Below are positions 30,936 to 45,079 of a stretch of 64,000 bases of DNA, one piece after another. The translations under genes and the position numbers were made by a program. The notes beneath the pieces are model-generated. The model had not been told where the DNA came from. It searched no databases and saw only the letters and a program-made list of their open reading frames with translations. Position 1 is the stretch's first letter. Each line of letters starts with the position of its first letter. The stretch spans positions 32,428 to 96,427 of the forward strand of contig JACROD010000023.1 in assembly GCA_016214605.1 (NCBI GenBank), read 5' to 3'. This DNA comes from Candidatus Kaiserbacteria bacterium (GTDB taxonomy: Bacteria; Patescibacteriota; Minisyncoccia; Phycocordibacterales; UBA2100).

Positions 30936-31829
30936 ATGAAAAATAAACTCACGTTCATCTTTGTGATCGCGATTATCATTGCTCTCTGGGCGGTTCTTTT
31001 CATACTCTCGCAGGGTGTTGATGTCTCCGTCTTGAATCCGAAAGGTTGGGTCGCGCTCCAGGAGAAAAATCTCATCATCACGGCAGTTCTCCTGATGTCT
31101 ATCGTGGTCGTGCCGGTGTACATCCTCACCTTCTTGATCGCTTGGAAATACCGCGCCAGCAACGCTTCCGCTGTATATGATCCCGACCATGACCATGATC
31201 TGCGCGTAGAGATCTTTTGGTGGGCCGTCCCGATCACGATCATTCTTATTCTCGGTACCATAACCTGGAAGACCACGCACGAGCTCGATCCTTTCAGACA
31301 TTTGGATTCCAATGCACGGCCGCTCACGGTCTATGTCGTCGCGCTCAATTGGAAATGGTTGTTCATTTATCCTGAGCAAGGGATCGCCACGGTGAATTTC
31401 GTCGAATTCCCCGAAAATAGGCCGATCGACTTTTGGATCACCGCCGATACGCCGATGAACTCCTTTTGGATACCGAGCTTGGGCAGCCAGATCTACGCGA
31501 TGGCTGGTATGACGACACAACTGCATCTGATCGCCGATCAAGTCGGCACATTCAACGGCCTTTCGGCGAATTTTAGCGGAGAGGGATTTTCGGGGATGAA
31601 ATTCGTCGCGCAATCAGTCTCGCAAAGCGATTTTGACCAATGGGTGCATTCGGTCCAGGAGCTTCCTACCATACTCGACGCGGACGAATACGTCCGATTG
31701 GCCGCACCTAGCTCAAACGTGCCCACGATGTATTTCGGTTCCGCCGATATGGGGCTGTATAATACAGTAGTCTTGAAATACATGACGCCCAACGTCTCGA
31801 TCCCCGCGATGGATCACGACGCGCATTAA
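30936..31829 (+). CDS. cyoA: Quinol oxidase subunit II (CyoA/QoxA-type; no CuA ligands)
   Basis: It has two N-terminal TM helices and a cupredoxin-like domain lacking the CuA Cys/His motif (..[18 protein letters not shown]..). It is immediately followed by subunits I, III and IV. Confidence 0.8.
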
Positions 31830-31837
31830 GATCAATT

Positions 31838-33814
31838 ATGTTCGGCAAACTCACACTCGATGCATTTCCGCAAAATCCGATCGTCATGTCGGCGTTAATC
31901 TTCATGATCGTGATCGGTGTCGCCATAGCGGGTGCCTTGTTCTATTTCAAGCGTTGGCGATGGTTCTGGGATGAATGGCTCACCTCGCTCGACGCCAAGC
32001 GTATCGGCGTGATGTATATCGCCGTCGGTTTCGTCATGCTGCTGCGCGGTGCCATAGACGCCGCGATGATGCGCGGGCAGCAGGCGATATCGGTCGGCGA
32101 TTCGTATGGTTATCTCACCCCCGACCACTTCGATCAGGTTTTCACCGCGCACGGCGTGATCATGATCTTCTTCGTCGCCATGCCGTTGATGTTTGGTCTC
32201 TTCAATCTCGTGGTGCCGCTTCAGATCGGCGCGCGCGATGTGGCATTTCCCTTCCTCAATTCAGTCAGCTTCTGGCTTTTTGCCGCCGGAGCGATACTCA
32301 TCAATATCTCGCTCGTCTACGGCGAATTCGCCAAGATCGGCTGGCTCGGCTACCCTCCGCTCTCTGAGCTCCAATACAGTCCCGGGGTCGGTGTCGATTA
32401 TTATATATGGCTGCTGCAGATCGCAGGCTTAGGCAGCCTCTTTGGCGCGATCAATTTTTTCGTGACGATCATCAAGATGCGCGCGCCAGGGATGACCTTG
32501 ATGCGCATGCCGATGTTTGAATGGACAACGCTCGCGAGTGTGGTGCTTATGATCGTTATATTCCCCATACTCACCGCGACCTTGGCGATGCTCTCCCTCG
32601 ATCGCTTGCTCGGGATGCATTTCTTTACTTCCGACTCCGGCGGCAACGCGATGATGTACGTCAATCTTATTTGGGCGTGGGGGCATCCGGAAGTATACGT
32701 GCTGATCTTGCCAGCCTTCGGCGCATTCTCGGAGATCGTACCGACCTTTGCGCGCAAGCCACTCTTTGGATATGCATCAATGGTCGCTGCATCAATCGTC
32801 ATTTGTTTTTTCTCGTTCATCGTATGGCTCCACCACTTCTTCACGATGGGTGCGGGAGCAAACGTAAACGCATTCTTTGGTATCGCGACGATGGTCATCG
32901 CCATCCCGACCGGTGTCAAAGTCTTCAACTGGCTCGCCACGATGTATCGCGGGCGCATCACTTTTACTTCGCCGATGTATTGGTTCCTCGGTTTTGTCGC
33001 AACCTTCACCCTCGGTGGCATGACCGGTGTGATGCTCGCAGTGCCGGGGATTGACTTCCAGGTCCACAACAGCCTCTTCTTGGTCGCGCACTTCCATAAT
33101 ATGGTGATCGGCGGTGTCGTGTTTGGTTATCTCGCGGCACTTTCTTTCTGGTTCCCCAAGATATTTGGTTTCCGGCTCAACGAAAAGTGGGGCATACGCG
33201 CCTTTTGGTGCTGGATCGTTGGATTCTTCGTGGCATTTATGCCGCTCTACGTACTCGGCTTCATGGGTGCGACGCGCCGCCTTGATCACTACGACGCTTC
33301 GACGGGTTGGCAGCCGCTTTTTATCGTGGCGGGCATCGGCGTCGCGATCATTGCGCTCGGTATCGTGTGTCAGGCGATACAGCTGATCGTGAGTATCAAG
33401 GAACGCAAACAAAATGCAGACACGACCGGCGATGCTTGGAATGATGGGCGCACGCTCGAATGGTCCACCTCCTCGCCGGCACCATTCTATAACTATGCCG
33501 TCATTCCGACCGTGCACGGACGCGATGCCTTTTGGGCGATGAAGCAGTCCGGCAACATTGGGCAAGCCAGGCTTGCCCAAGAGTACACAGACATTGAACT
33601 GCCGCGCAATACTCCTATGGGAGTGTATATCGGCGCATTCGCGCTCGTATTCGGATTCTCTCTCGTGTGGCACATCTGGTGGCTCGCCCTCATCGGAGCC
33701 CTGGGGATCGTCGCGTGCATTATCGCGCGCTCGTTTGATGAGCACACCGAATACATCCTCCCGGCCGCAGAGGTCGCTCGCATGGAAGCCGCTCGCGGCG
33801 CACAAACGATATGA
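31838..33814 (+). CDS. cyoB: Quinol oxidase subunit I (heme-copper oxidase catalytic subunit)
   Basis: 658 aa with ...[17 protein letters not shown]..., ...HHFFTMG... and [15 protein letters not shown], the classic HCO subunit I signatures. Confidence 0.9.
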
Positions 33815-34383
33815 CGCAGGACCTTTCTGAAAATAAGACAGTGTTCGGATTTTGGATCTATATCCTGAGCGATTGTTTTCTTTTTGCGACGCTTTTTGCC
33901 ACGTATGCGGTCTTGCACGGAAGCACATTTGGAGGGCCGGGAGCGGATACGCTCTTTAGTTTGCCGTTTGTCCTTGCCGAGACTCTCATCCTGCTCACCA
34001 GCAGCTTCACCGCAGGCCTCGCCATGCTTGCCGGGCATCAGGGCAAGCGCATACATGTGCTCGTATGGATTGGTATTACACTTCTCCTTGGACTCACCTT
34101 CGTTGGATTGGAGCTCAGGGAATTTGCCGCATTCATCGCTGAGGGCAATAGCTGGACCCGTAGCGGATTCTTGTCGGGATTCTTCACATTAGTGGGCACG
34201 CATGGCGCACACGTGGCCGCCGGATCGCTCTGGATGATCGTACTCATGGTCCAGATCACAAAGAAAGGCCTCACGGACACTCTGATGAACCGACTCATGC
34301 GCTGGAACCTTTTCTGGCATTTCCTGGATGTTGTGTGGATCTTTATCTTTACGTTCGTCTACCTTTTGGGCATAGCCCTCTAA
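33811..34383 (+). CDS. cyoC: Quinol oxidase subunit III
   Basis: 190 aa with five TM helices. Its position and length match CyoC. Confidence 0.8.
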
Positions 34384-34387
34384 CACT

Positions 34388-34786
34388 ATGGAAGACTCTA
34401 CGCATCACATGATCGATCATTCCCACTCATCTCGGCACGGTTCGCTCGTCTCATACATCATCGGCTTTGTGATCTCGATCGTCCTCACGCTTGCTGCATA
34501 TTTCATCGTGCAGCAGCATGTCTCTTCGCTCCACGAGACCTTCAGTCATTCATTTATCACCTTTGCCGTGGTCGGCTTCGCACTGCTGCAGCTTCTGGTC
34601 CAGCTCATTTTCTTTTTGCACCTGGGCCGCGACGCCAAACCCCATTGGAATCTTATCGTCTTTGTGTACGCATTTCTCCTGCTCCTTATCATCGTCGTAG
34701 GCTCTCTCTGGGTCATGCATCACCTCAACTACAACATGATGCTCATGCCGCCAGCGGAGGTCGATGCCTACATGCTTGATAAATAG
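34388..34786 (+). CDS. cyoD: Quinol oxidase subunit IV
   Basis: 132 aa with three TM helices immediately after subunit III. Confidence 0.7.
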   Translation: MEDSTHHMIDHSHSSRHGSLVSYIIGFVISIVLTLAAYFIVQQHVSSLHETFSHSFITFAVVGFALLQLLVQLIFFLHLGRDAKPHWNLIVFVYAFLLLLIIVVGSLWVMHHLNYNMMLMPPAEVDAYMLDK

Positions 34787-34817
34787 CTCACGGTGAGCAA
34801 GCCAGGCTTGCTCAAAT

Positions 34818-34850
34818 GGCAGGGAACGATGCCCTGCCATTTTTCATTTT
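34818..34850 (+). terminator. Rho-independent terminator after cyoD (ggcagggaacgatgccctgcc + atttttcatttttg)
   Basis: Hairpin followed by a T-run. The 19-bp palindrome at 34795-34813 precedes it. Confidence 0.6.
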
Positions 34851-34855
34851 TGTAA

Positions 34856-34878
34856 AAATATGTAACGTATGGTATGAT
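34856..34878 (+). promoter_or_regulatory. Sigma-70-like promoter TTGTAA-N17-TATGAT, 8 nt upstream of the hicB ATG (near-leaderless)
   Basis: The hexamers and spacing were read directly. No RBS lies between the -10 and the ATG at 34887. Confidence 0.4.
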
Positions 34879-34886
34879 GATTTATC

Positions 34887-35129
34887 ATGAAAAGGAAATC
34901 AAAAACAGTTACGACCTATACGGCAGTTGTTGAGAAGGACGAAAAGTCGGGCTATTGGGCGTATGTGCCCGCACTCCCTGGATGCTATACGCAGGGAGAG
35001 ACGCTTGATGCGATATACAAAAATCTGCAAGAAGCGACCGTGTTGTATCTAGCGGCACTGAAAGACGATAAAAAACCAGTGCCGCACTCGCATTTTTTGA
35101 GCACAGTGCAAGTGCAAGTTCCTGTTTGA
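34887..35129 (+). CDS. hicB: HicB-family antitoxin (UPF0150)
   Basis: YTAVVEKDEKSGYWAYVPALPGCYTQGETLDAIYKNLQEATVLYL is the HicB RNase-H-like fold signature. Confidence 0.65.
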   Translation: MKRKSKTVTTYTAVVEKDEKSGYWAYVPALPGCYTQGETLDAIYKNLQEATVLYLAALKDDKKPVPHSHFLSTVQVQVPV

Positions 35130-35138
35130 GATTTCGAT

Positions 35139-35354
35139 ATGGCGAAAATTCCTCGCGGCAGAGAGATGGTGCGAAAACTGTTGCGAATCGGTTTCGTATT
35201 GAATCGTCAGCATGGAAGCCATTGCGTAATGAAAAATGCAACGGGAGAGACTATTGTAGTGCCCGTGCATGCCGGCAGAGAATTAAAGATTGGCCTCTTT
35301 CGAAGTATTTTCTCGCAAATCGGCGTGTCCGAAGAAGAATTCTGGGAGATATGA
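35139..35354 (+). CDS. hicA: HicA-family toxin (mRNA interferase)
   Basis: MVRKLLRIGFVLNRQHGSHCVMKNATGETIVVPVHAGRELKIGLFRSIFSQIG is the HicA dsRBD-like motif, including the catalytic-region GSH. Confidence 0.65.
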   Translation: MAKIPRGREMVRKLLRIGFVLNRQHGSHCVMKNATGETIVVPVHAGRELKIGLFRSIFSQIGVSEEEFWEI

Positions 35355-36211
35355 TCAAGCGATACATCTCGCTCACCAAGCCCGGGATCATCATGGGCAA
35401 TGCGATCACGGCCTCGGGAGGATTTTTCCTCGCTTCGCGAGGGGCTTTTGATCCGGTGCTTTATCTCGCGATGCTCGCCGGGCTCTCACTCATCATCGCC
35501 TCTGGCTGTGTGATCAACAATTACTTCGATCGCGACATCGACGGCCTCATGGAACGCACCAAAAACCGCGCGCTCGTAAGTGGTGCAATGGTGCCCATTG
35601 CACCATGGAAGGCCATTTTTTTTGCGGCAGCACTCGGGGTCTTGGGGGTATGGATACTCTATCGATATACGAATCTCCTCACACTCGAGGTCGCGCTCTT
35701 TGGCGCTTTCGTATATATCGTGCTCTATACGCTCTGGTCTAAGCGCCGATCGACCAAAAGCACCTTCATAGGAAGCCTTTCGGGCGCGGTGCCACCGGTC
35801 ATCGGCTACTGTGCCGTGACCAATACGATCGATGCTGCGGCGATCCTCCTCTTTCTCATCCTTGTGCTCTGGCAAATGCCGCATTTCTTCGCGATCGCGC
35901 TGTATCGCATCGAGGATTACACGGCCGCCGCGATCCCGGTCTTGCCGGTCAAGAAAGGGATCTTGGCAACCAAGATCCAGATGATCCTCTATATCAACGC
36001 TTTTATCGTCGCGACACTCGCGTTGACCGCACTGGACTACACGGGATATTTCTACGCGCTTGTCATGGCGGTACTCGGAATCGTGTGGCTCGTCCTCGCG
36101 ATCATGGGATTCAAGGCGCCGGACACCAAAAAATGGGCACGGAGGATGTTTATCCTCTCACTGGTGGTCATTGTGACGTTTCCTGTCATGCTCGCAATTG
36201 ACGTACGGTAA
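35351..36211 (+). CDS. cyoE: Protoheme IX farnesyltransferase (heme O synthase)
   Basis: The ATG at 35351 overlaps the hicA stop (ATGA). The translation MIKRYISLTKPGIIMGNAITASGGFFLA...NNYFDRDIDGLMERTKNRAL... is the UbiA-family CyoE/CtaB. ORF-track frame 35126..36211 is an upstream over-extension. Confidence 0.85.
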   Translation: MIKRYISLTKPGIIMGNAITASGGFFLASRGAFDPVLYLAMLAGLSLIIASGCVINNYFDRDIDGLMERTKNRALVSGAMVPIAPWKAIFFAAALGVLGVWILYRYTNLLTLEVALFGAFVYIVLYTLWSKRRSTKSTFIGSLSGAVPPVIGYCAVTNTIDAAAILLFLILVLWQMPHFFAIALYRIEDYTAAAIPVLPVKKGILATKIQMILYINAFIVATLALTALDYTGYFYALVMAVLGIVWLVLAIMGFKAPDTKKWARRMFILSLVVIVTFPVMLAIDVR

Positions 36212-36212
36212 A

Positions 36213-39028
36213 TACTACAACAGTAGAAATTCCCTATAACGATTTGGCAACCGCTGTTGGAACGCCTTTATTACATCTACAACAGTAGAAATTCCCTATA
36301 ACGATTTGGCACGTCGGGCTTTTGGCATACGTTTAATCTACAACAGTAGAAATTCCCTATAACGATTTGGCGTACTTCGGGCACAGCCAACACCGGATCT
36401 ACAACAGTAGAAATTCCCTATAACGATTTGGCTTTTGTGACCTGATCGCTAGTAACTCATCTACAACAGTAGAAATTCCCTATAACGATTTGGCCCTACT
36501 CGCTCAACATCACACACGGCATCTACAACAGTAGAAATTCCCTATAACGATTTGGCGCAAAGCAATGGCATTGTGGACATTATCTACAACAGTAGAAATT
36601 CCCTATAACGATTTGGCCTGACATCAGGTTGGGTTTGGGGTTACATCTACAACAGTAGAAATTCCCTATAACGATTTGGCCGAATACATGGGTGGGGTGA
36701 ATCGAGAATCTACAACAGTAGAAATTCCCTATAACGATTTGGCGAATCCGACGTATACGATCGGCGTATTATCTACAACAGTAGAAATTCCCTATAACGA
36801 TTTGGCAAAACAATTTTGCCATGCAGAATAGATCTACAACAGTAGAAATTCCCTATAACGATTTGGCGGTGGAGGCAATGATTAGCGGGTTCTATCTACA
36901 ACAGTAGAAATTCCCTATAACGATTTGGCGTCATGCACAACCCACATCTCTTTGATCTACAACAGTAGAAATTCCCTATAACGATTTGGCGAATTATCAG
37001 TACGATGAGGTAGCAATCTACAACAGTAGAAATTCCCTATAACGATTTGGCGCGCTCGCCTTCGATAACAATTATATCTACAACAGTAGAAATTCCCTAT
37101 AACGATTTGGCCGTGAAACACCCCGAGCGTCGTGTATATCTACAACAGTAGAAATTCCCTATAACGATTTGGCGATAACGGGCGTATACTTGGAGTACCA
37201 TCTACAACAGTAGAAATTCCCTATAACGATTTGGCGAAAGAAGCCGCGAACAAAACAAAATATCTACAACAGTAGAAATTCCCTATAACGATTTGGCCCG
37301 CAGGGGTAATAAACACGTCTTTATCTACAACAGTAGAAATTCCCTATAACGATTTGGCGTCCGGAGCACCAGACCTTCTCTCCATCTACAACAGTAGAAA
37401 TTCCCTATAACGATTTGGCAGTGCCCGGAGCGGAGGTTTATGAGATCTACAACAGTAGAAATTCCCTATAACGATTTGGCACGTGTGCACGTTGCTACTA
37501 CTATCAAATCTACAACAGTAGAAATTCCCTATAACGATTTGGCATGGTGGCGGGGGTAAACTCGTTATAATCTACAACAGTAGAAATTCCCTATAACGAT
37601 TTGGCGGTTCTCGAAGTCGTTGAACCATATATCTACAACAGTAGAAATTCCCTATAACGATTTGGCGCCAACGACGCAACGAAAGCCGCCTAATCTACAA
37701 CAGTAGAAATTCCCTATAACGATTTGGCGTGATTTCAACATCACCCAGGAGGACATCTACAACAGTAGAAATTCCCTATAACGATTTGGCAAAAGCCGAA
37801 GAAACGGCGTTTCAAACATCTACAACAGTAGAAATTCCCTATAACGATTTGGCGAATCCAGCGAAGGAGTAATAAAAAAATCTACAACAGTAGAAATTCC
37901 CTATAACGATTTGGCGTGAGCGTGGTATGTGTGAGGGCCAAATCTACAACAGTAGAAATTCCCTATAACGATTTGGCAGTGAACGTGCGCACCTCCCAGT
38001 CCTATCTACAACAGTAGAAATTCCCTATAACGATTTGGCCCCGAATTGGTAGCAAAATATAATATATCTACAACAGTAGAAATTCCCTATAACGATTTGG
38101 CCAATCAATCTTGATCCGCAGATTATTTATCTACAACAGTAGAAATTCCCTATAACGATTTGGCATCACAGCTTAATATGCAACCTACAATCTACAACAG
38201 TAGAAATTCCCTATAACGATTTGGCAGGTGTACGCACGCGAGGAGGCACAAGATCTACAACAGTAGAAATTCCCTATAACGATTTGGCACGGGTCGTGAG
38301 GGACGAGGATACCTATCTACAACAGTAGAAATTCCCTATAACGATTTGGCACCGATATTCTATAACGATTAGTGAAATCTACAACAGTAGAAATTCCCTA
38401 TAACGATTTGGCCAACGAAAGCGCGACGAAGCAGCGCGATCTACAACAGTAGAAATTCCCTATAACGATTTGGCACCCCGAAATCGTCGCGCAATATCAG
38501 ATCTACAACAGTAGAAATTCCCTATAACGATTTGGCTCGATCTCGATATTGAGATGGTAGCATCTACAACAGTAGAAATTCCCTATAACGATTTGGCTTT
38601 TTGTGAATGCTGATTATTTTCAATCTACAACAGTAGAAATTCCCTATAACGATTTGGCTATTGCATTCTCATCAAGTGCCTCCAATCTACAACAGTAGAA
38701 ATTCCCTATAACGATTTGGCTTAAAGGCTCTGATATTCAGGGCATATCTACAACAGTAGAAATTCCCTATAACGATTTGGCAGGGTCAAGACCACGTATC
38801 TCTCTTTATCTACAACAGTAGAAATTCCCTATAACGATTTGGCTCGTGCTAAGAGGAAAAATAAAATATATCTACAACAGTAGAAATTCCCTATAACGAT
38901 TTGGCCGATCGTGTAGCGTGATCGGTTTTTGATCTACAACAGTAGAAATTCCCTATAACGATTTGGCCAGCGCTAAATAGACATCTATATGGATCTACAA
39001 CAGTAGAAATTCCCTATAACGATTTGGC
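36213..39028 (-). CRISPR. CRISPR array with 46 copies of a 36-nt repeat (minus-strand sense GCCAAATCGTTATAGGGAATTTCTACTGTTGTAGAT) and 45 spacers of ~25-27 nt. It is transcribed on the minus strand with the leader at the high-coordinate end
   Basis: Counted directly. Period is ~62 nt. The repeat's 3' 19 nt (AATTTCTACTGTTGTAGAT) forms the short UCUAC-UGUU-GUAGA hairpin typical of type V-A repeats. The leader-distal repeat at 36213 is degenerate (atactacaac) and starts 2 nt after the cyoE stop. Confidence 0.95.
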
Positions 39029-39223
39029 TGCGGGGATGGCTTGGTTGAGCCGCAGGATACAAATGAGGCACGAAGGCACTCACGACCTGGTTGGCTCAAC
39101 GAAGCCATTGTAAGGCCTCATCAAAAAATAAAGACTCCGGTTTTCACCGATCCCCGCAAGCGAAATCGAATCGTTACAATACAACTTCCACTCTTGTTGT
39201 TATGAAATTTTCAAAGGTCAGAG
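39029..39223 (-). promoter_or_regulatory. CRISPR leader (~195 bp) between cas2 and the first repeat, AT-rich with inverted repeats
   Basis: 16-nt inverted repeats atggcttggttgagcc (39036-39051) and ggctcaacgaagccat (39093-39108). A second pair atgaggc (39063-39069) and gcctcat (39115-39121) is interleaved with the first. An A/T-rich tract lies at 39120-39135. Confidence 0.5.
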
Positions 39224-39505
39224 TTAGTCGAAAACAACCACTTCTTTATCGTCGTTTTCTGCATAGCCGTACCGAACAATTTTCTTGCGGCACTGCTCGC
39301 AAAGAGGCACGATCATGACGCTATCCGCGCCCGTGAACTGCTTCTTATAATGCAATTCTATCTCCTTTTTAATGTTGCGCAAGATGCGATCACTATTACG
39401 TATCTCGTACACCGAGAATTGCAATTTGCGCCCAAACTTGCACAAAAACTTGGAAAATTTAGTCCGTACCTTATCGTTGGAGATGTCGTAAGATGTAACG
39501 AGCAT
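39224..39505 (-). CDS. cas2: CRISPR-associated endoribonuclease Cas2
   Basis: MLVTSYDISNDKVRTKFSKFLCKFGRKLQFSVYEI... is the Cas2 N-terminal beta-strand with Asp and the (R)LQxSV core. Its position next to cas1 and the array supports the call. Confidence 0.85.
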   Translation of the reverse strand: MLVTSYDISNDKVRTKFSKFLCKFGRKLQFSVYEIRNSDRILRNIKKEIELHYKKQFTGADSVMIVPLCEQCRKKIVRYGYAENDDKEVVVFD

Positions 39506-39510
39506 AATGT

Positions 39511-40467
39511 CTATATGTTAAATACGGGAAATTCCACTTCACCTTCGTTCATGACGTACCTATAATACCCATGTACGTATTTATACAAATCCTCCTTATG
39601 ACACATAATTGTTTCCATAAAGATCTCGGCATATTTACGACTCGCCTCGTATGAGAGTGTGTATCGTCCCTTCACCACTGTAAAATCCTTCGGGTCTATC
39701 TGCTTTAGATTCCACGCTTTGAGGAGTTGCTTGTCGATGATGCAGCGGAATGGCTCCATAATGTCACAGGCAAGCGACTTGCGCTGGAAGAAAAGCTTGT
39801 GATAAAAACCCTTATAGGTATCGAATCCATGTAGGCGGAGCAATGAATCGGTGCAATTGAATAGCATCGAATATCCGATGTCTAGCATAATATTGTGTAT
39901 GTCCCCCTTGGTGCGTGGGGCTCGTCGCACCCAACCTGTTTCGCCGTAATATTCTTCAAAAAACCTCCGCGAAGCATTACCCTCAAGTCCACGCAGAGTC
40001 TCATCACTACCCGCGCCCTGTATGGCGAGCAGTGTAGTATCCAGATCAGCTACCATACCATCTTTTTTCTTTCGTTCTTTGAGAAGTTTTGCTTGATTGG
40101 AAACTTTGTTTGCCATGAGCAATCGTGCCATGCTCATTTCCACATCCTCATTCCACGCATACTGGCGACTACGCAAGAGATAGTGCCCCTCTGCCACCGC
40201 ACCAAAGCTGGCATATGTCTCCAGATTGTCCTTGAGAAAGAAGAATGACACGCCGTGTTTGACCCCGTCACGCATGAGGCCGCTCGTGATGGTAATGTCC
40301 CCTATCACAAACGCGCCAAAGACCTTGTGACACGATGCCCTATTGATCACCTTGTCGTCCTTCATAAAGACCAAATTGTCATTAAAGAATTTGATCTTGT
40401 TGAAAACGCCACGCTCGGCCCGTATGAAGAGAAGTTGTTTTTCTTTGAAGTCAGGTAGTGAAATCAT
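39511..40467 (-). CDS. cas1: CRISPR-associated integrase Cas1
   Basis: 318 aa with ...GFDTYKGFYHKLFFQRKSLACDIMEPFRCIIDKQL... This corresponds to the Cas1 GxH...R.SL..DLMEPFRP.VD catalytic region. Confidence 0.9.
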   Translation of the reverse strand: MISLPDFKEKQLLFIRAERGVFNKIKFFNDNLVFMKDDKVINRASCHKVFGAFVIGDITITSGLMRDGVKHGVSFFFLKDNLETYASFGAVAEGHYLLRSRQYAWNEDVEMSMARLLMANKVSNQAKLLKERKKKDGMVADLDTTLLAIQGAGSDETLRGLEGNASRRFFEEYYGETGWVRRAPRTKGDIHNIMLDIGYSMLFNCTDSLLRLHGFDTYKGFYHKLFFQRKSLACDIMEPFRCIIDKQLLKAWNLKQIDPKDFTVVKGRYTLSYEASRKYAEIFMETIMCHKEDLYKYVHGYYRYVMNEGEVEFPVFNI

Positions 40468-40474
40468 ATGCGTA

Positions 40475-41014
40475 TTACCATGCTAGTGCTCCATAAATGC
40501 TTTCTTCGCAGCGTATACAGGAGTGTCCGTGGACGGCAGACATGTCGAAAGCGCGCATGTCTGCGAGCACTTGCTCAAAACGTGTTTTTTCAGCTTCGCC
40601 AGGGATGGGTATTTCATAGCGCTTGTTATCTTCGAGTGAGTGGAGAAATAGCTTGTCTATCTCGTATCCCATTTCGATCATGCAGTAGTATTGGGCGTAG
40701 AGCTGGTATCGGTAGCCGTCTCGGATCTCCTTGATGCGCGTTTTGCGTTCGATGAGGTGCTTTTTGTCGGCGTCGTATAGGTCAATCCGACCTGCCACCG
40801 CAAGCCTTTCGGAGTAGACTTCCATTCCCCCGATAAACCGACGTGCAGTGGAGTAGGTGTCGTCGTCGAGATGTGCATGGTTGGCCCGGCCGACGATCTG
40901 GGGCGTTTGATGGTAGGTCTTGGTGTTGAATCCTTCATAGAGATTATGGAGATAGATGGAGACCGGACAATACAAAAAGTCGTTGATATTGGAGATTTTG
41001 ATGTACGGTTCCAT
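40475..41014 (-). CDS. cas4: CRISPR-associated Cas4 (PD-(D/E)xK exonuclease with Fe-S cysteines)
   Basis: N-terminal FLYCPVSIYLHNLY, a core D...E.K (RIDLYDADKKHLIERKTR), and a C-terminal ...HGHSCIRCEESIY cysteine cluster. Confidence 0.8.
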   Translation of the reverse strand: MEPYIKISNINDFLYCPVSIYLHNLYEGFNTKTYHQTPQIVGRANHAHLDDDTYSTARRFIGGMEVYSERLAVAGRIDLYDADKKHLIERKTRIKEIRDGYRYQLYAQYYCMIEMGYEIDKLFLHSLEDNKRYEIPIPGEAEKTRFEQVLADMRAFDMSAVHGHSCIRCEESIYGALAW

Positions 41015-41203
41015 GGCTTGATAACAAAATAGCGACCCGCTAGGATCGCCACCTTGTTATCATGTGGTTGATCTTACGTCAAGTGTGTTGTATTTATGAT
41101 TAGGCCCTTTGTATCTCTTTTGTGGTTTCCTACTGTATGGACGATGCTGATTGTAAGCCACGATAAGCTATCCCAGTCTCTTGTAGAGACTCTAAAGGCC
41201 TAA
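41015..41203 (-). promoter_or_regulatory. Structured 189-bp spacer between the cas12a stop and the cas4 start. It has nested inverted repeats (a possible terminator or attenuator) plus a TTGACG box
   Basis: Outer arms gattaggccctttg (41097-41110) and ctaaaggcctaatc (41191-41204). Inner hairpin agtctcttgtagagact (41174-41190) lies 14 nt after the cas12a TGA. A second IR gataacaa...ttgttatc is at 41021-41062. Confidence 0.4.
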
Positions 41204-44200
41204 TCATAGTTGTATTCCGTGTTTAGTTGCCCATTCGTCCCACTGTTCTTTACTGATGTATAAATCCGGTTTTTCTGGATTATCATTTATACGGCCAATG
41301 GTGATAATACCCTTTCGAGCAATGTTGTAGGCGCCGAGAGAGTCGCCATTCGCCAGATTGATGTCACATGGATTTGGCTTTGGCGCATTGAGGGTTGTGA
41401 AGAATGGAGCAACGGGTGATGCAATGAAGTCGGTCTTATCAGACGAATTTCGGATATCGAGAATGATATTGAAGATATAGATGAATGCCTGGAAGAAGTT
41501 CCTTTCTCGCCCGTCAATCATCTTATAGCTGCTGAGTTCTCCATTTTTCATCTTTTCCTCGATCTTACTTTTTAGGTCGGTCGCTATTTTGTCCTCAAAA
41601 TTCCACGCCTCAAACAGAGACTTGAACATATCGTTCGGATTTACATTCCGAGCATTCCAAACACCTTGTTCGTTTCTCTCGCGACGAATACGTGGCACAT
41701 CTGCATATACCGTCCATAATTTCGATATCGTTTTAGTTTTCTCCTTCTTATCTACAAGTCTAACTGGATCGTAAGTGATAAAGTAGCTTTGCCTTTCTTC
41801 GTTCCAACCAATAGCATCGAAAGATTTAATTGCTTTTTCTAACTTCTCTTTGGTAGCTGAGTTACTGACATACACATTCTTACGGAATCCGGTGACAGGA
41901 TCTGTCGTCGACGTGTATGCTGCTTCAGTGTAGAAGACGATACCGGTCTGATTACCCATGTCTTTGAACGACTCAAACGGCGCGGCGAGTTGATAACCGT
42001 TTAGGACACCGCCTATTTCAAGCTCCGGCCTGTCTTTGAACACCATGTGACCGAGCTTGTCTACGAGTTGCTTTTCGAGCTGTTGGTATACACTCTTTTC
42101 AATACCACTACGAATTTGTTTGAAACGCATGTTGAGATTTTCGAGCACGATAATCGCGTTGTGTTCTATGGCGAGGTCGCAAATCTTTTTGACAGCATGC
42201 GATACATATCCACGCTTGAGGTCTTTGATCTGGCGCACCGGTAACCATGCTTGGCGATTGGCAGTACGTTCTTTCTCCTTGCCATCAAGAAGCTTGTGAT
42301 AGTCGGTGCCGCTAATCTCATTTAGACTCCCTTCGTCGACAATCACACCTTTTTGATTGATCACTGAATAGTATGCGAGATGCTTTTCCCCGCGATCAAT
42401 GCCGATGATGCAAAAGTCTTTTGCGCGCTTCGCGATAAGCTCGGCATTGAGTATCTTATTGAATTGATATTGGCTACGCATTGCATCCGTCCCCGCGTTG
42501 ATCTTGATTGGCACATGGAAGAATACCTTGTCTTCGGTAAAACGTTTGTATTTGGTGATGTCTCGCGGGAAGTTGCGTTTTTCTTTTTCCGGCTCCACCG
42601 ATGCCTCGCGGTAAAAAATCTCCGCATTTCCGGCGAGTTGTACCACAGTCGGTGTCTGTGCGAGATTTGCTTCGGAAAAGAGTTGTGAGAAGTAGAGTGA
42701 ATGCACATTTTTAGTACCCGTTGATCCGCTCGCAAAGTCTTTGCTTTTAATTTTGAACAAATACATCTCTCCTTTTGCAACATGCTCATCAATGTAGTCC
42801 GCATCTACTGGAACAAACTTTATCTTGTAATTTTGCTGTGCAATGTGGTCATTAAATTCACCGATACCCACATATTCCTCTGGTTTCTTCCATGTGAGTC
42901 CAAACGTCTCTTGGTAACCACCTTTGGCGAGACAGTTTTGATAGTACGCAATTAGTCTGGCAGTTTTATTCGCATCAAACTGATTTTTCCACGCACTCTG
43001 ATCTTCCTTTTTTGACTCTTGGAACTTGGCATACTCATCTTTAATCGCCTGCACTTCTGGTGTCCATCCAAACGTTTTTTTGTTGGTTTCCGCGAAAGCC
43101 ACCTTGGGAATCATGCGCTTTGGATCTGGAAACAGTTTGTATTCCATTTTTGAATATCCATTATCACCTGCTCGATACGCTTCGGGGTGTTTCTTCTCCT
43201 CCAGTATGTCACTAAACTGTTTACGCATTATCGCAAGATAATAAGCGCCGTCTTTTCGCAGAATAATGCCCAGCTTCTCTTGCTCTTTGTTTTTGTCCCA
43301 CCCGGAAAGAAGGGTGCCACATTCGAAGTTGAGTTTGACTTTGTTTTCATCGGATGGTTTTTGAGTGAGAAAATTGCGCGCTACATTGTAGAGCGGAAAG
43401 AAAATGTCTTTCGCATATTCTTCGCGATAGGCATCGTAGAATTTTGGGTCGTAACCCTCTTCTGGCTCAACCCAATCTCTCCTGTTTTCCGTCGCAAAGT
43501 ATTTGATCATACGATGCGCATCGCGACAGCTATTAAGGTACGCGCTGATACGATTGATCTGAATTGTCCCCTCATCTTCTTTTTCCTTACGCCTCTGCGA
43601 AAGTGCGCCCGTTGTCCAAAAGGAATCTTTTTTGAGGTCCGCCAAATCAACTGCACTTTCGGCAACACGCGCATCAAGTTCACTCAAGAGTATTGTAATG
43701 AGGTTTGTAAAGTGCCCGACACTCTCGACAAATGCTGCATGTTTCAATATCTCTGACCTGAACAACTCACTCGGTTTCTTCCCTTTATTTATTTCGTTCA
43801 CATCGAGAGCATTCTGTACGTGTTGAAGGGACACAAAATCAGGTAACTCCCCACCTCCACCCTTCGCCGTGCCAACCGCATCGAGAAGTGCGCCCTTGAG
43901 TACACTCCAGTTTGTGAAGTACTTACTCGAAATCGTATTGATCGCACCACTGGAGAAATATATTTTTGACCACTCATACCCACTTTTTTCTGGCATAGTA
44001 AGTGCGTCACGAATGAGCGCCAACATCTTCGTGCAGTAGGCGACATTTTCTTCAGAAAATACCTTTAGTTTCTCCCAGAGTTGGGCATCACCTTTTATCA
44101 CGAGCATCTCAAACACGTCTTTTTCACTCAAAATTTGATTGTGTAATTTTGCCAAAAAACTGATTTTGTTTCCAGTTTTCTGACGGTATTCGTTTACTTT

Positions 44201-45079
44201 TTTATTCACACTTTGCTCAAGCTCGGTACTGCCTCCAAGAACAGTATTGTAAACATCGATTCCGGCTTGCAAAAAACAACGATGATAGGCCTCAACATCG
44301 GTCAGCGCAAGAATCTCGGAATCAGTGAGTCCGATAGCGGTTTTTACTTTCTTATACTCGGATTCAACGATGTGTTTATTGCGCAAAAACTTTTCGAGAT
44401 TTTCGACTACACGTGTAGCCACCGCCGTGCTCGTACCGTCACTCTTGTAGAAATTCTCTCGCGTCTCGTTAAACTTTCCAAAATATGTGAAGAATCCAAA
44501 GAATGTCGAAAACACTTGTGTATCTTCAGCAAACTTATCCATTAGGATATTCAACACCGCTTCGTCAGTGAGAATTTTACAGCCTGTAGATGAGAACTTG
44601 ATTTTCTTTTGCTTGCCTGTGCGCCCAACGGATTCTATTTCTTCATATTGTGCCTTCCACTCATCGCCCATCTCATCAAAGAGACCTGCGACCTCGTACA
44701 AAAGAGCTTTTCTTTCTTTCTCATATGCGCTCTTCTGTTCTTTCGTTTGTGTCTTTTTGGCAACACCGATAAGGGCGTTATATGCACGTACAAAACTTGC
44801 AAGTTTTAACGCACTGACTTTTGATTCTGTAAAAGACGCTTGCACAAACAAACGATGTAATTGGTCCAATCGCACCTTGGTCTTTTGATAGTTTTCCTCG
44901 ACTTTTTTATCTTCTTCAAAAACAGCTTTTAAGGATTCGGAAGTTTTGCCTTGCGGCACCAACTCAAACCGCAATGTCTTCGACAATGCGTATTTGTGAG
45001 TAAAGCTGTCAAACACGGACTTTTGTCCTTCGGGATTCTTTCCACCGGACACAGGCGATCTCTGGGTCATGGTATTCAT
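41204..45079 (-). CDS. cas12a: Type V-A CRISPR effector Cas12a (Cpf1), 1291 aa. It is a single RuvC-like nuclease with no HNH domain
   Basis: The N-terminus FDSFTHKYALSKTLRFELVPQGKTSESLKA (the WED strand conserved in the Cas12a family). RuvC-I CIIGIDRGEKHLAYYSVI. RuvC-II AIIVLENLNMRFKQIRSGIEKSVYQQLEKQLVDKL. Then GIVFYTEAAYTSTTDPVTGF. RuvC-III INLANGDSLGAYNIARKG near the C-terminus. The family Lys-rich helical REC region is present. It lies immediately upstream of cas4-cas1-cas2 and the array. Confidence 0.9.
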   Translation of the reverse strand: MNTMTQRSPVSGGKNPEGQKSVFDSFTHKYALSKTLRFELVPQGKTSESLKAVFEEDKKVEENYQKTKVRLDQLHRLFVQASFTESKVSALKLASFVRAYNALIGVAKKTQTKEQKSAYEKERKALLYEVAGLFDEMGDEWKAQYEEIESVGRTGKQKKIKFSSTGCKILTDEAVLNILMDKFAEDTQVFSTFFGFFTYFGKFNETRENFYKSDGTSTAVATRVVENLEKFLRNKHIVESEYKKVKTAIGLTDSEILALTDVEAYHRCFLQAGIDVYNTVLGGSTELEQSVNKKVNEYRQKTGNKISFLAKLHNQILSEKDVFEMLVIKGDAQLWEKLKVFSEENVAYCTKMLALIRDALTMPEKSGYEWSKIYFSSGAINTISSKYFTNWSVLKGALLDAVGTAKGGGGELPDFVSLQHVQNALDVNEINKGKKPSELFRSEILKHAAFVESVGHFTNLITILLSELDARVAESAVDLADLKKDSFWTTGALSQRRKEKEDEGTIQINRISAYLNSCRDAHRMIKYFATENRRDWVEPEEGYDPKFYDAYREEYAKDIFFPLYNVARNFLTQKPSDENKVKLNFECGTLLSGWDKNKEQEKLGIILRKDGAYYLAIMRKQFSDILEEKKHPEAYRAGDNGYSKMEYKLFPDPKRMIPKVAFAETNKKTFGWTPEVQAIKDEYAKFQESKKEDQSAWKNQFDANKTARLIAYYQNCLAKGGYQETFGLTWKKPEEYVGIGEFNDHIAQQNYKIKFVPVDADYIDEHVAKGEMYLFKIKSKDFASGSTGTKNVHSLYFSQLFSEANLAQTPTVVQLAGNAEIFYREASVEPEKEKRNFPRDITKYKRFTEDKVFFHVPIKINAGTDAMRSQYQFNKILNAELIAKRAKDFCIIGIDRGEKHLAYYSVINQKGVIVDEGSLNEISGTDYHKLLDGKEKERTANRQAWLPVRQIKDLKRGYVSHAVKKICDLAIEHNAIIVLENLNMRFKQIRSGIEKSVYQQLEKQLVDKLGHMVFKDRPELEIGGVLNGYQLAAPFESFKDMGNQTGIVFYTEAAYTSTTDPVTGFRKNVYVSNSATKEKLEKAIKSFDAIGWNEERQSYFITYDPVRLVDKKEKTKTISKLWTVYADVPRIRRERNEQGVWNARNVNPNDMFKSLFEAWNFEDKIATDLKSKIEEKMKNGELSSYKMIDGRERNFFQAFIYIFNIILDIRNSSDKTDFIASPVAPFFTTLNAPKPNPCDINLANGDSLGAYNIARKGIITIGRINDNPEKPDLYISKEQWDEWATKHGIQL

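What the first reader, a model, noticed from the sequence alone, without database searches (positions are those of the whole stretch)
41204..45079. Cas12a ortholog with unusual local features: extended RuvC-III (NGDSLGAYN) and a GC-rich host context
The catalytic triad positions are recognisable as D in IGIDRGE, E in IVLENLN, and D in NGDSLGAYNIARKG. The RuvC-III motif carries a 3-residue insertion (DSL) relative to the usual DANGA(Y/F)(H/N)I pattern.

The gene is embedded in a comparatively GC-rich genome that also encodes a quinol oxidase. Many characterised Cas12a proteins come from low-GC hosts, so this ortholog may differ in PAM preference, temperature optimum or trans-cleavage behaviour.
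Basis: partly seen in the sequence, partly recalled or inferred. Interest (0 to 1): 0.7.

Follow-up and report, generated by a model that had tools for sequence, protein, structure and literature searches.

The report
Ordinary Cas12a gene, no RuvC insertion
This is an intact, standard Cas12a (type V-A CRISPR) gene with its Cas4-Cas1-Cas2 partners and a 45-spacer array in a Kaiserbacteria-type (candidate phyla radiation) bacterium. The claimed three-residue insertion at the nuclease active site is a mis-registered motif reading, and the real difference is two substituted residues right after the catalytic aspartate.

Summary
The ORF at 41204-45079 (minus strand, 1291 aa) is a real Cas12a. It passes the Pfam and NCBIfam Cas12a models and matches FnCas12a, AsCas12a and LbCas12a structures. 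A 100% identical protein is already in NCBI, annotated as Cas12a/Cpf1 of a Candidatus Kaiserbacteria bacterium.

It heads a complete type V-A locus: cas12a-cas4-cas1-cas2, a leader, and 46 repeats with 45 spacers. The last 19 nt of the repeat equal the FnCasCas12a crRNA handle as I recall it.

All four are invariant in 63 aligned homologs.

The "DSL insertion" is not real. D-S-L-G-A-Y aligns column for column with the family's D-A-N-G-A-Y, with no gap. The true feature is A->S and N->L at +1 and +2 of the catalytic Asp. It is fixed in a six-member clade of 64-100% identity. Non-Asn at +2 occurs in 13 of 241 relatives.

The host is about 52% GC, but the cas island is only 41-46% GC and sits in different neighbourhoods in three relatives. 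The PAM-reading lysines are canonical, so nothing suggests an unusual PAM.

This is an ordinary, already annotated ortholog of low interest. One side observation: the canonical RNase histidine (Fn H843) is missing here and in many relatives.

The parts
41204..45079 (-). cas12a (cpf1), 1291 aa from the first ATG. The NCBI record starts at the second ATG and gives 1288 aa.
   Evidence: ORF. Pfam RuvC_1, REC1, NUC, Cpf1_PI-like and cas_Cpf1_2nd are all above cut-off. NCBIfam TIGR04330 cas_Cpf1 scores 753 bits against a cut-off of 300. PDB FnCas12a E=5.5e-147. A 100% identical NCBI protein is named Cas12a/Cpf1.
42386..42406 (-). RuvC-I motif IGIDRGE, with catalytic D895 at 42395-42397
   Evidence: Aligned to AsCas12a IGIDRGE/D908. 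Invariant in 63 sequences. Coordinates.
42131..42151 (-). RuvC-II motif IVLENLN, with catalytic E980 at 42140-42142
   Evidence: Aligned to As VVLENLN. Invariant. Coordinates.
41450..41452 (-). Nuc-domain arginine R1210 (DIRNS)
   Evidence: Aligned to FnCas12a R1218 in QMRNS. Invariant.
41309..41350 (-). RuvC-III motif NGDSLGAYNIARKG. Catalytic D1246 is at 41342-41344. S1247 and L1248 replace the family's A/D/E and N. There is no insertion.
   Evidence: Gap-free alignment of gdslgay to Fn adangay/D1255. 120 homologs are in the same register. N at +2 occurs in 228 of 241 aligned relatives. The AF2 model places D1246 at the N-terminus of helix 1245-1266.
41345..41419 (-). Variable loop SPVAPFFTTLNAPKPNPCDINLANG between the Nuc SPV motif and the catalytic Asp
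   Evidence: Against FnCas12a, HMMER puts 5 extra residues here (INLAN) and 4 fewer just after SPVA, a net of +1. Loop length varies widely among homologs.
40475..41014 (-). cas4 (type V), 179 aa
   Evidence: NCBIfam TIGR04328 cas4_PREFRAN scores 186 bits against a cut-off of 70.
39511..40467 (-). cas1 (type V), 318 aa
   Evidence: Pfam Cas_Cas1. NCBIfam TIGR04329 cas1_PREFRAN scores 324.5 bits against a cut-off of 300.
39224..39505 (-). cas2, 93 aa
   Evidence: Pfam CRISPR_Cas2. NCBIfam TIGR01573.
39029..39223 (-). Putative leader between cas2 and the first repeat
   Evidence: Position, together with about 75% nucleotide conservation with the corresponding stretch of L001. The degenerate repeat lies at the far end of the array. 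Promoter scan was at chance level.
36213..39028 (-). CRISPR array of 46 repeats of 36 nt and 45 unique spacers of 24-27 nt. Repeat in crRNA sense: GCCAAATCGTTATAGGGAATTTCTACTGTTGTAGAT. 45 repeats are identical and the distal one at 36213-36248 has 2 mismatches.
   Evidence: The repeat folds into the 5-bp UCUAC/GUAGA stem with a UGUU loop.

Best explanation
This is a complete, canonical class 2 type V-A CRISPR-Cas locus of a Candidatus Kaiserbacteria (Patescibacteria/CPR) bacterium, and the flagged ORF is its effector, Cas12a.

Inferred mechanism, from family knowledge:
- The array is transcribed from the cas2-proximal leader.
- Cas12a binds the repeat-derived 5' handle (AAUUUCUACUGUUGUAGAU pseudoknot).
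- It reads a T-rich 5' PAM with the conserved WED and PI lysines K598 and K659.
- It forms an R-loop and cuts both DNA strands in the single RuvC site (D895, E980, D1246), assisted by Nuc R1210.
- Cas4-Cas1-Cas2 acquire new spacers.

Shown directly:
- Domain set, catalytic residues, repeat and handle, adaptation genes, array integrity, and purifying selection.
- The RuvC-III motif is not extended. It is the normal motif with two substitutions directly after the catalytic Asp (D-A-N to D-S-L), which sit in the first turn of the RuvC-III helix.
- These substitutions are fixed in a small clade of otherwise intact loci.

From this I infer that the substitutions are tolerated.
For: Identity:
- Pfam and NCBIfam Cas12a models are above cut-off.
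- FnCas12a, AsCas12a and LbCas12a structures match at E=1e-115 to 1e-147.
- An AF2 model of residues 835-1291 has pLDDT 89 and pTM 0.88. Its best Foldseek hits are all Cas12a, with TM 0.71-0.78.
- An identical NCBI protein is annotated Cas12a.

Catalytic residues:
- They align to As D908 and to Fn D1255 and R1218 and are invariant in 63 sequences. These are the residues named in the review PMC11127173.

No insertion:
-.

Functional state:
- 45 perfect repeats and 45 unique spacers.
- Type V cas4, cas1 and cas2 are intact.
- The 75%-identical ortholog L001 has the same gene order, a repeat differing by 1 nt, and entirely different spacers.
- For cas12a, pN is 0.15 against a saturated pS of 0.85. 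For cas4 and cas2, dN/dS is about 0.05.
- DSL is conserved in all six clade members at 64-100% identity.

Host:
- The best named AlaRS hits are all Kaiserbacteria or Patescibacteria.
Against: - No biochemical data exist for this protein or its clade. Literature searches found nothing.
- Asn at +2 of the catalytic Asp is 95% conserved in the family, so its replacement by Leu could affect catalysis.
- The canonical RNase histidine (Fn H843) has no counterpart, so autonomous pre-crRNA processing is not assured.
- No protospacer was found. Neither targets nor PAM could be verified.
Confidence: 0.92

Rival explanations
1. This is a Cas12a lineage with altered nuclease chemistry. The N1248L and A1247S changes next to the catalytic Asp modify RuvC activity, for example slower cleavage, nicking, or changed trans-cleavage, while the protein otherwise works as Cas12a.
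For: N at +2 occurs in 228 of 241 relatives. The query clade has L, and the change is among only 23 deviations at 222 well-conserved columns.
Against: - The substitution is fixed across six diverged orthologs under strong purifying selection, with large, perfect arrays.
- Hydrophobic or other non-Asn residues at +2 (L, V, I, T) occur in three other motif groups of full-length Cas12a.
- From memory only: E. coli RuvC itself has Leu at +2 of its last catalytic Asp (D141-A-L).
- All metal-ligand residues are intact.
Confidence: 0.06
2. One reading: a genuine 3-residue insertion (DSL) extends RuvC-III relative to DANGA(Y/F).
For: Only the visual resemblance of the upstream 'LANG' to 'DANG'. HMMER does place 5 extra residues (INLAN) relative to FnCas12a, but upstream of the catalytic Asp.
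Against: - The D...GAY spacing is identical to that of every homolog aligned.
- Under the insertion reading, the catalytic Asp would be replaced by Leu or Ala in 'LANG'.
- The invariant Asp column is D1246.
- The net length difference to Fn between SPV and GAY is +1, in a loop whose length varies widely in the family.
Confidence: 0.01
3. The locus is a decaying or domesticated remnant, with an inactive effector or a fossil array.
For: None specific. No protospacers were found. The canonical RNase His is absent.
Against: - All ORFs are intact.
- 45 of 46 repeats are identical.
- The catalytic residues are invariant.
- pN is far below pS.
- The sister locus has a completely different spacer set, which implies ongoing acquisition.
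Confidence: 0.01

Closest known systems
FnCas12a (Francisella novicida Cpf1; PDB 5NG6, 5NFV, 6I1K, 8Y0B)
   Same: - Same domain order and full-length alignment (query residues 20-1283, E=5.5e-147).
- D917/E1006/D1255/R1218 equivalents are present.
- 36-nt repeat whose last 19 nt match the Fn handle. The Fn repeat is recalled from memory.
- K613 and K671 PAM lysine equivalents are present.
   Different: - About 34-35% identity over the RuvC/Nuc half.
- DAN becomes DSL after the catalytic Asp.
- The pre-catalytic loop is net 1 residue longer.
- The WED segment carrying H843 and K852 is 17 residues shorter and has no His.
- About 18 extra N-terminal residues.
AsCas12a and LbCas12a (PDB 5B43, 8SFH; 5XUS, 5ID6)
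   Same: RuvC-I/II region 207 bits, E=1.7e-60, to As. The same fold, with TM 0.71-0.78.
   Different: 30-35% identity. Both carry DANGAY.
Uncharacterised Cas12a of CPR/Patescibacteria metagenome bins (P0002-P0007; e.g. CAIJXH010000016 = L001, JBFOMO010001869 = L003)
   Same: 56-82% identity (P0002-P0007). L001 and L003 have the same cas12a-cas4-cas1-cas2-array order. P0002-P0006 share DSLGAY. L001 has a near-identical repeat.
   Different: - Different spacers and different flanking genes.
- L001's protein has lost both PAM lysines.
- L003's repeat differs upstream of the handle and has a UUUU loop.
- P0007 keeps DAN.
ReChb, a reconstructed ancestral Cas12a (PDB 8QWD-F)
   Same: Best-scoring PDB sequence (E=3.6e-165). 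38% identity over the C-terminal half.
   Different: A synthetic consensus-like protein that carries the canonical His-containing WED segment.

Membership tests
Cas12a / type V-A CRISPR-Cas | Single large effector with REC1, REC2, WED/PI, RuvC and Nuc domains and no HNH | tested here: met
   Pfam REC1, cas_Cpf1_2nd, Cpf1_PI-like, RuvC_1 and NUC hit, with no other family. NCBIfam cas_Cpf1 equivalog scores 753 bits against a cut-off of 300. Foldseek TM 0.71-0.78 to Cas12a structures.
Cas12a / type V-A CRISPR-Cas | Split RuvC catalytic triad D-E-D plus the Nuc arginine | tested here: met
   D895, E980, D1246 and R1210 align to As D908 and to Fn D1255 and R1218. They are invariant in 63 homologs.
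Cas12a / type V-A CRISPR-Cas | RuvC-III motif D-x-N-G-A-Y-x-I in the normal register | tested here: inconclusive
   Register and spacing are normal with no insertion. The +2 Asn is Leu, a state seen in 9 of 241 relatives (non-Asn in 13 of 241).
Cas12a / type V-A CRISPR-Cas | Repeat ending in the crRNA handle stem-loop UCUACU-loop-GUAGAU, transcribed in the same direction as the cas genes | tested here: met
   Repeat ...GGGAATTTCTACTGTTGTAGAT on the cas strand. 5-bp stem predicted.
Cas12a / type V-A CRISPR-Cas | Type V adaptation module cas4-cas1-cas2 adjacent to the effector | tested here: met
   cas4_PREFRAN, cas1_PREFRAN and cas2 are all above NCBIfam cut-offs.
Cas12a / type V-A CRISPR-Cas | WED-domain RNase site for pre-crRNA processing (Fn H843, K852, K869) | tested here: not met
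   The K869 equivalent (K843 in ITKYKRF) is present, but the segment holding H843 and K852 is 17 residues shorter and has no His. The same holds for 51 of 120 homologs, so this is a subfamily trait and not an exclusion from Cas12a. Residue roles are from PMC11127173.
Cas12a / type V-A CRISPR-Cas | T-rich 5' PAM read by WED and PI lysines | tested here: inconclusive
   Lysines K598 and K659 are conserved. The PAM itself could not be derived because no protospacers were found.
Cas12a / type V-A CRISPR-Cas | No tracrRNA, and crRNA-guided staggered dsDNA cleavage | not testable with these tools
   Needs RNA-seq and biochemistry. Rfam found nothing in the window.

The most novel reading that the evidence does not exclude
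The DSL clade, and perhaps the large His-less branch of metagenomic Cas12a it belongs to, has rewired active sites. It has a RuvC-III helix start without the near-universal Asn, and a shortened WED RNase site without the catalytic histidine. Such enzymes might mature crRNA by different residues or by host RNases, and might show different cis- and trans-cleavage kinetics from the Fn, As and Lb enzymes.
Probability: 0.12. Interest if true: 0.45.

Novelty: already known. Interest (0 to 1): 0.12.

Why it matters
It matters little as it stands. The protein is already deposited and correctly annotated as Cas12a, the locus is textbook type V-A, and Cas12a in candidate-phyla-radiation bacteria has been known since the first Cpf1 survey (from memory).

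The useful outcomes are negative ones:
- The 'extended RuvC-III' should not be propagated.
- The 'GC-rich' argument for unusual properties is weak, because the cas island is AT-richer than its host and looks horizontally mobile.

The only points a specialist might follow up are two. One is the rare Asn-to-Leu change beside the catalytic Asp. The other is the absence of the canonical RNase histidine, which is shared with many uncultivated-lineage Cas12a. Both could bear on enzyme kinetics and on multiplex crRNA processing if such orthologs were developed as tools.

Tried and rejected
- **PAM inference from spacer targets.** No self-matches in the window at up to 5 mismatches. BLAST of the whole array against phage and plasmid collections gave only chance-level hits (E >= 0.8) or repeat hits. 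Eight IMG/VR scans with 21-nt PAM-proximal spacer segments gave zero hits.
- **The one metagenome scan.** It gave a single 21/25-nt match inside a 1.5-Mb contig with CGGA upstream. The last four bases mostly mismatch. I judged it a chance match.
- **RNA genes and signals.** The Rfam gathering scan and tRNA scan of the window found nothing. The sigma-70 promoter and terminator scan of the locus found no more than the shuffles.
- **Literature.** No paper links Cas12a with Kaiserbacteria, mentions the +2 Asn by residue number, or contains the motif string. A paper on a patescibacterial Cas12a (PMC13059738) concerns a different, degraded Absconditicoccaceae system.
- **Compensatory partner of N1248L.** Positions 1099 (F to Y) and 1229 (S to T) track the non-Asn groups. 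Those groups are phylogenetically close, so this is not independent evidence. I rejected it as inconclusive.
- **Source contig.** The exact-sequence contig look-up for P0001 found nothing on record.
Full report
**1. What is at the coordinates**

A single uninterrupted ORF runs from 45079 down to 41204 on the minus strand and encodes 1291 aa. It hits all five Pfam Cas12a domain families: RuvC_1 (5.9e-75), REC1, NUC, Cpf1_PI-like and cas_Cpf1_2nd. It also hits the NCBIfam equivalog cas_Cpf1 at 753 bits against a cut-off of 300.

Against the PDB it aligns over nearly its full length to FnCas12a (residues 20-1283, E=5.5e-147). It also matches AsCas12a, LbCas12a, MbCas12a and Lb2Cas12a.

A 100% identical protein is already in NCBI nr as 'type V CRISPR-associated protein Cas12a/Cpf1 [Candidatus Kaiserbacteria bacterium]', on a 120-kb contig. 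That record is 1288 aa and starts at the second ATG.

**2. The locus**

The following lie downstream on the same strand:
- a type V cas4 at 41014-40475 (cas4_PREFRAN, 186 bits against 70);
- cas1 at 40467-39511 (cas1_PREFRAN, 324.5 bits against 300);
- cas2 at 39505-39224;
- a leader of about 195 nt;
- a CRISPR array at 39028-36213.

The array has 46 repeats of 36 nt and 45 unique spacers of 24-27 nt. Forty-five repeats are identical. Only the cas-distal one is degenerate, with 2 mismatches, which fits a cas2-proximal leader.

In crRNA sense the repeat is GCCAAATCGTTATAGGGAATTTCTACTGTTGTAGAT. It folds into the 5-bp UCUAC/GUAGA stem. Its last 19 nt are the FnCas12a handle as I recall it from memory.

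**3. The catalytic residues**

Counting along the native-length chains in the HMMER alignments gives these equivalences:
- D895 (IGIDRGE) pairs with AsCas12a D908.
- E980 lies in VLENLN, aligned to As VLENLN.
- R1210 (DIRNS) pairs with Fn R1218.
- D1246 pairs with Fn D1255.

D917/E1006/D1255 and R1218 are the residues listed for FnCas12a in PMC11127173. In a 63-sequence alignment spanning 34-84% identity over the fragment, D895, E980, R1210, D1246, G1249 and A1250 are invariant.

**4. The claimed insertion is an artefact**

HMMER aligns query 'g-d-s-l-g-a-y-n-i-a-r-k-g' to Fn 'a-d-a-n-g-a-y-h-i-g-l-k-g' without a gap.

All 108 homologs (of the 120 retrieved) in which my pattern search found the motif show it in the same register, mostly as NGD[A/D/E]NGAYNIARKG. 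The query clade reads NGDSLGAYNIARKG.

Relative to Fn, the only length differences lie upstream in the loop between the Nuc 'SPV' motif and the Asp. The query has 5 extra residues (INLAN) and 4 fewer just after SPVA, a net of +1. This loop varies widely in length in the family; P0007 and P0008 carry much longer versions.

An AlphaFold2 model of residues 835-1291 has pLDDT 89 and pTM 0.88. It places D1246 at the N-terminal end of a long helix (1245-1266), preceded by a coil. Its best Foldseek matches are exclusively Cas12a structures, with TM 0.71-0.78.

**5. How unusual is D-S-L?**

- Of 222 alignment columns that are at least 80% conserved in the other homologs, the query deviates at 23. L1248 is one of these; the others have N in 96%.
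- In a wider set of 241 C-terminal halves, the +2 residue is N in 228. This set includes 150 representatives of 50%-identity clusters from an exhaustive search of 1.84 billion proteins.
- The +2 residue is non-Asn in 13 of the 241. These form four motif groups: DSL (this clade), DAL, DG[V/I] and DAT.
- In a neighbour-joining tree the six DSL proteins (64-100% identity) form one clade. Its sister, P0007, keeps DAN, and DAL (P0009) branches just outside.

The substitution is rare but recurrent, and it is fixed in a clade of intact proteins. From memory only, and not tested here: bacterial RuvC has Leu at the equivalent +2 position (D141-A-L). That would be consistent with tolerance of a hydrophobic residue there.

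**6. Is the system alive?**

The 75%-identical ortholog in L001 (CAIJXH010000016) has the same cas12a-cas4-cas1-cas2-leader-array order. Its repeat differs by one base, and none of its spacers is shared. A third ortholog, L003 (78% identity), again has the full module and an array of about 30 repeats.

Between the window and L001, non-synonymous divergence of cas12a is 0.15, while synonymous sites are saturated at pS 0.85. For cas4 and cas2, dN/dS is about 0.05. This is strong purifying selection together with spacer turnover, so I infer a functional system.

**7. Host and composition**

The window outside the locus is 52.2% GC. By contrast, cas12a is 43.4%, cas4-cas2 46.5% and the array 40.7%. 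The same dip is seen in L001 and L003. The three orthologous loci lie in three different gene neighbourhoods. The island therefore looks horizontally mobile and does not share the host's composition.

The best named relatives of the window's alanyl-tRNA synthetase are all Candidatus Kaiserbacteria, Patescibacteria or Paceibacterota. This supports the NCBI label. From memory: Cas12a from CPR bacteria were already in the original Cpf1 survey, and AsCas12a comes from a host of about 50% GC. If so, a 52% GC host is not exceptional among characterised orthologs.

**8. PAM and other speculated differences**

The PAM-reading lysines are conserved:
- K598 in GWDKNKE pairs with Fn K613.
- K659 in MIPKVAF pairs with Fn K671 (Fn K671 numbering from memory).

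The handle is canonical, so the default expectation is a T-rich PAM. I could not verify this empirically, because no protospacer was found in the window, in phage or plasmid collections, or in eight IMG/VR scans. The one metagenome hit is best explained by chance.

**9. Side observation**

In FnCas12a the WED RNase site uses H843, K852 and K869 (PMC11127173). In the query the corresponding segment is FYREASVEPEKEKRNFPRDITKYKRFTED (residues 822-850). It is 17 residues shorter and contains no histidine. The K869 equivalent (K843) and the F873 equivalent are kept.

This is not peculiar to this gene. Of the 120 sequences in that alignment (query included):
- 51 have no His in the segment;
- 46 have a His within three residues upstream of the R872 equivalent (in most, two residues before it);
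- roughly 13 have the Fn-like arrangement.

Whether such enzymes self-process pre-crRNA is untested.

**10. Verdict**

This is an ordinary, intact and already annotated type V-A locus. The headline feature, an insertion in RuvC-III, is a reading artefact. The real local variant (DAN to DSL) is rare but evidently tolerated. Interest is low.

Noticed in passing
window 42530-42616 (-), Cas12a residues 822-850: The WED segment that carries the pre-crRNA-processing His and Lys in FnCas12a (H843, K852) is 17 residues shorter here and has no histidine. The K869 equivalent is kept. Of the 120 aligned sequences, 51 also lack any His there, and 46 have a His within three residues upstream of the R872 equivalent.
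   Followed up: partly
L001 10001-13873 (P0004, 75% identical ortholog): The sister ortholog has replaced both PAM-reading lysines (GWDQNME instead of GWDKNKE, and DIPHTAW instead of MIPKVAF). It may therefore read a different PAM, while the window's protein keeps the canonical residues.
   Followed up: no
window 30936-36211 (+): A heme-copper quinol-oxidase-like operon (COX2/COX_ARM, COX1 and COX3 subunits) plus a UbiA-family, heme O synthase-like gene lies directly next to the CRISPR array. The housekeeping AlaRS on the same contig is Kaiserbacteria-like. Oxygen reductases were reported in only 3 of 492 Patescibacteria single-cell genomes (PMC7507113).
   Followed up: partly
window 36213-45079; L001 10001-16409; L003 8001-15600: The whole cas island is 6-11 GC points below its flanks in all three genomes. 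It is embedded in three unrelated gene neighbourhoods, which suggests horizontal mobility of the locus within this lineage. No flanking repeats or integrase genes were looked for.
   Followed up: partly
window 36211-36248: The degenerate terminal repeat of the array begins 2 nt after the stop codon of the convergently oriented UbiA-family gene. This leaves essentially no intergenic spacer or visible terminator between them.
   Followed up: no
window 45068-45079: Two in-frame ATGs give 1291 or 1288 aa, and NCBI uses the second. P0002 shares the MNTMTQRSPVS N-terminus, which mildly favours the first. The clade carries an N-terminal extension of about 18 residues relative to FnCas12a.
   Followed up: partly
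L002 2895-2915 (Ga0209060_10000007, a 1.5-Mb contig): The first 21 nt of spacer 5 (window 38721-38745) match exactly inside a large metagenomic contig. The last 4 nt mostly mismatch and the upstream bases are CGGA, not T-rich. This is probably a chance hit.
   Followed up: partly
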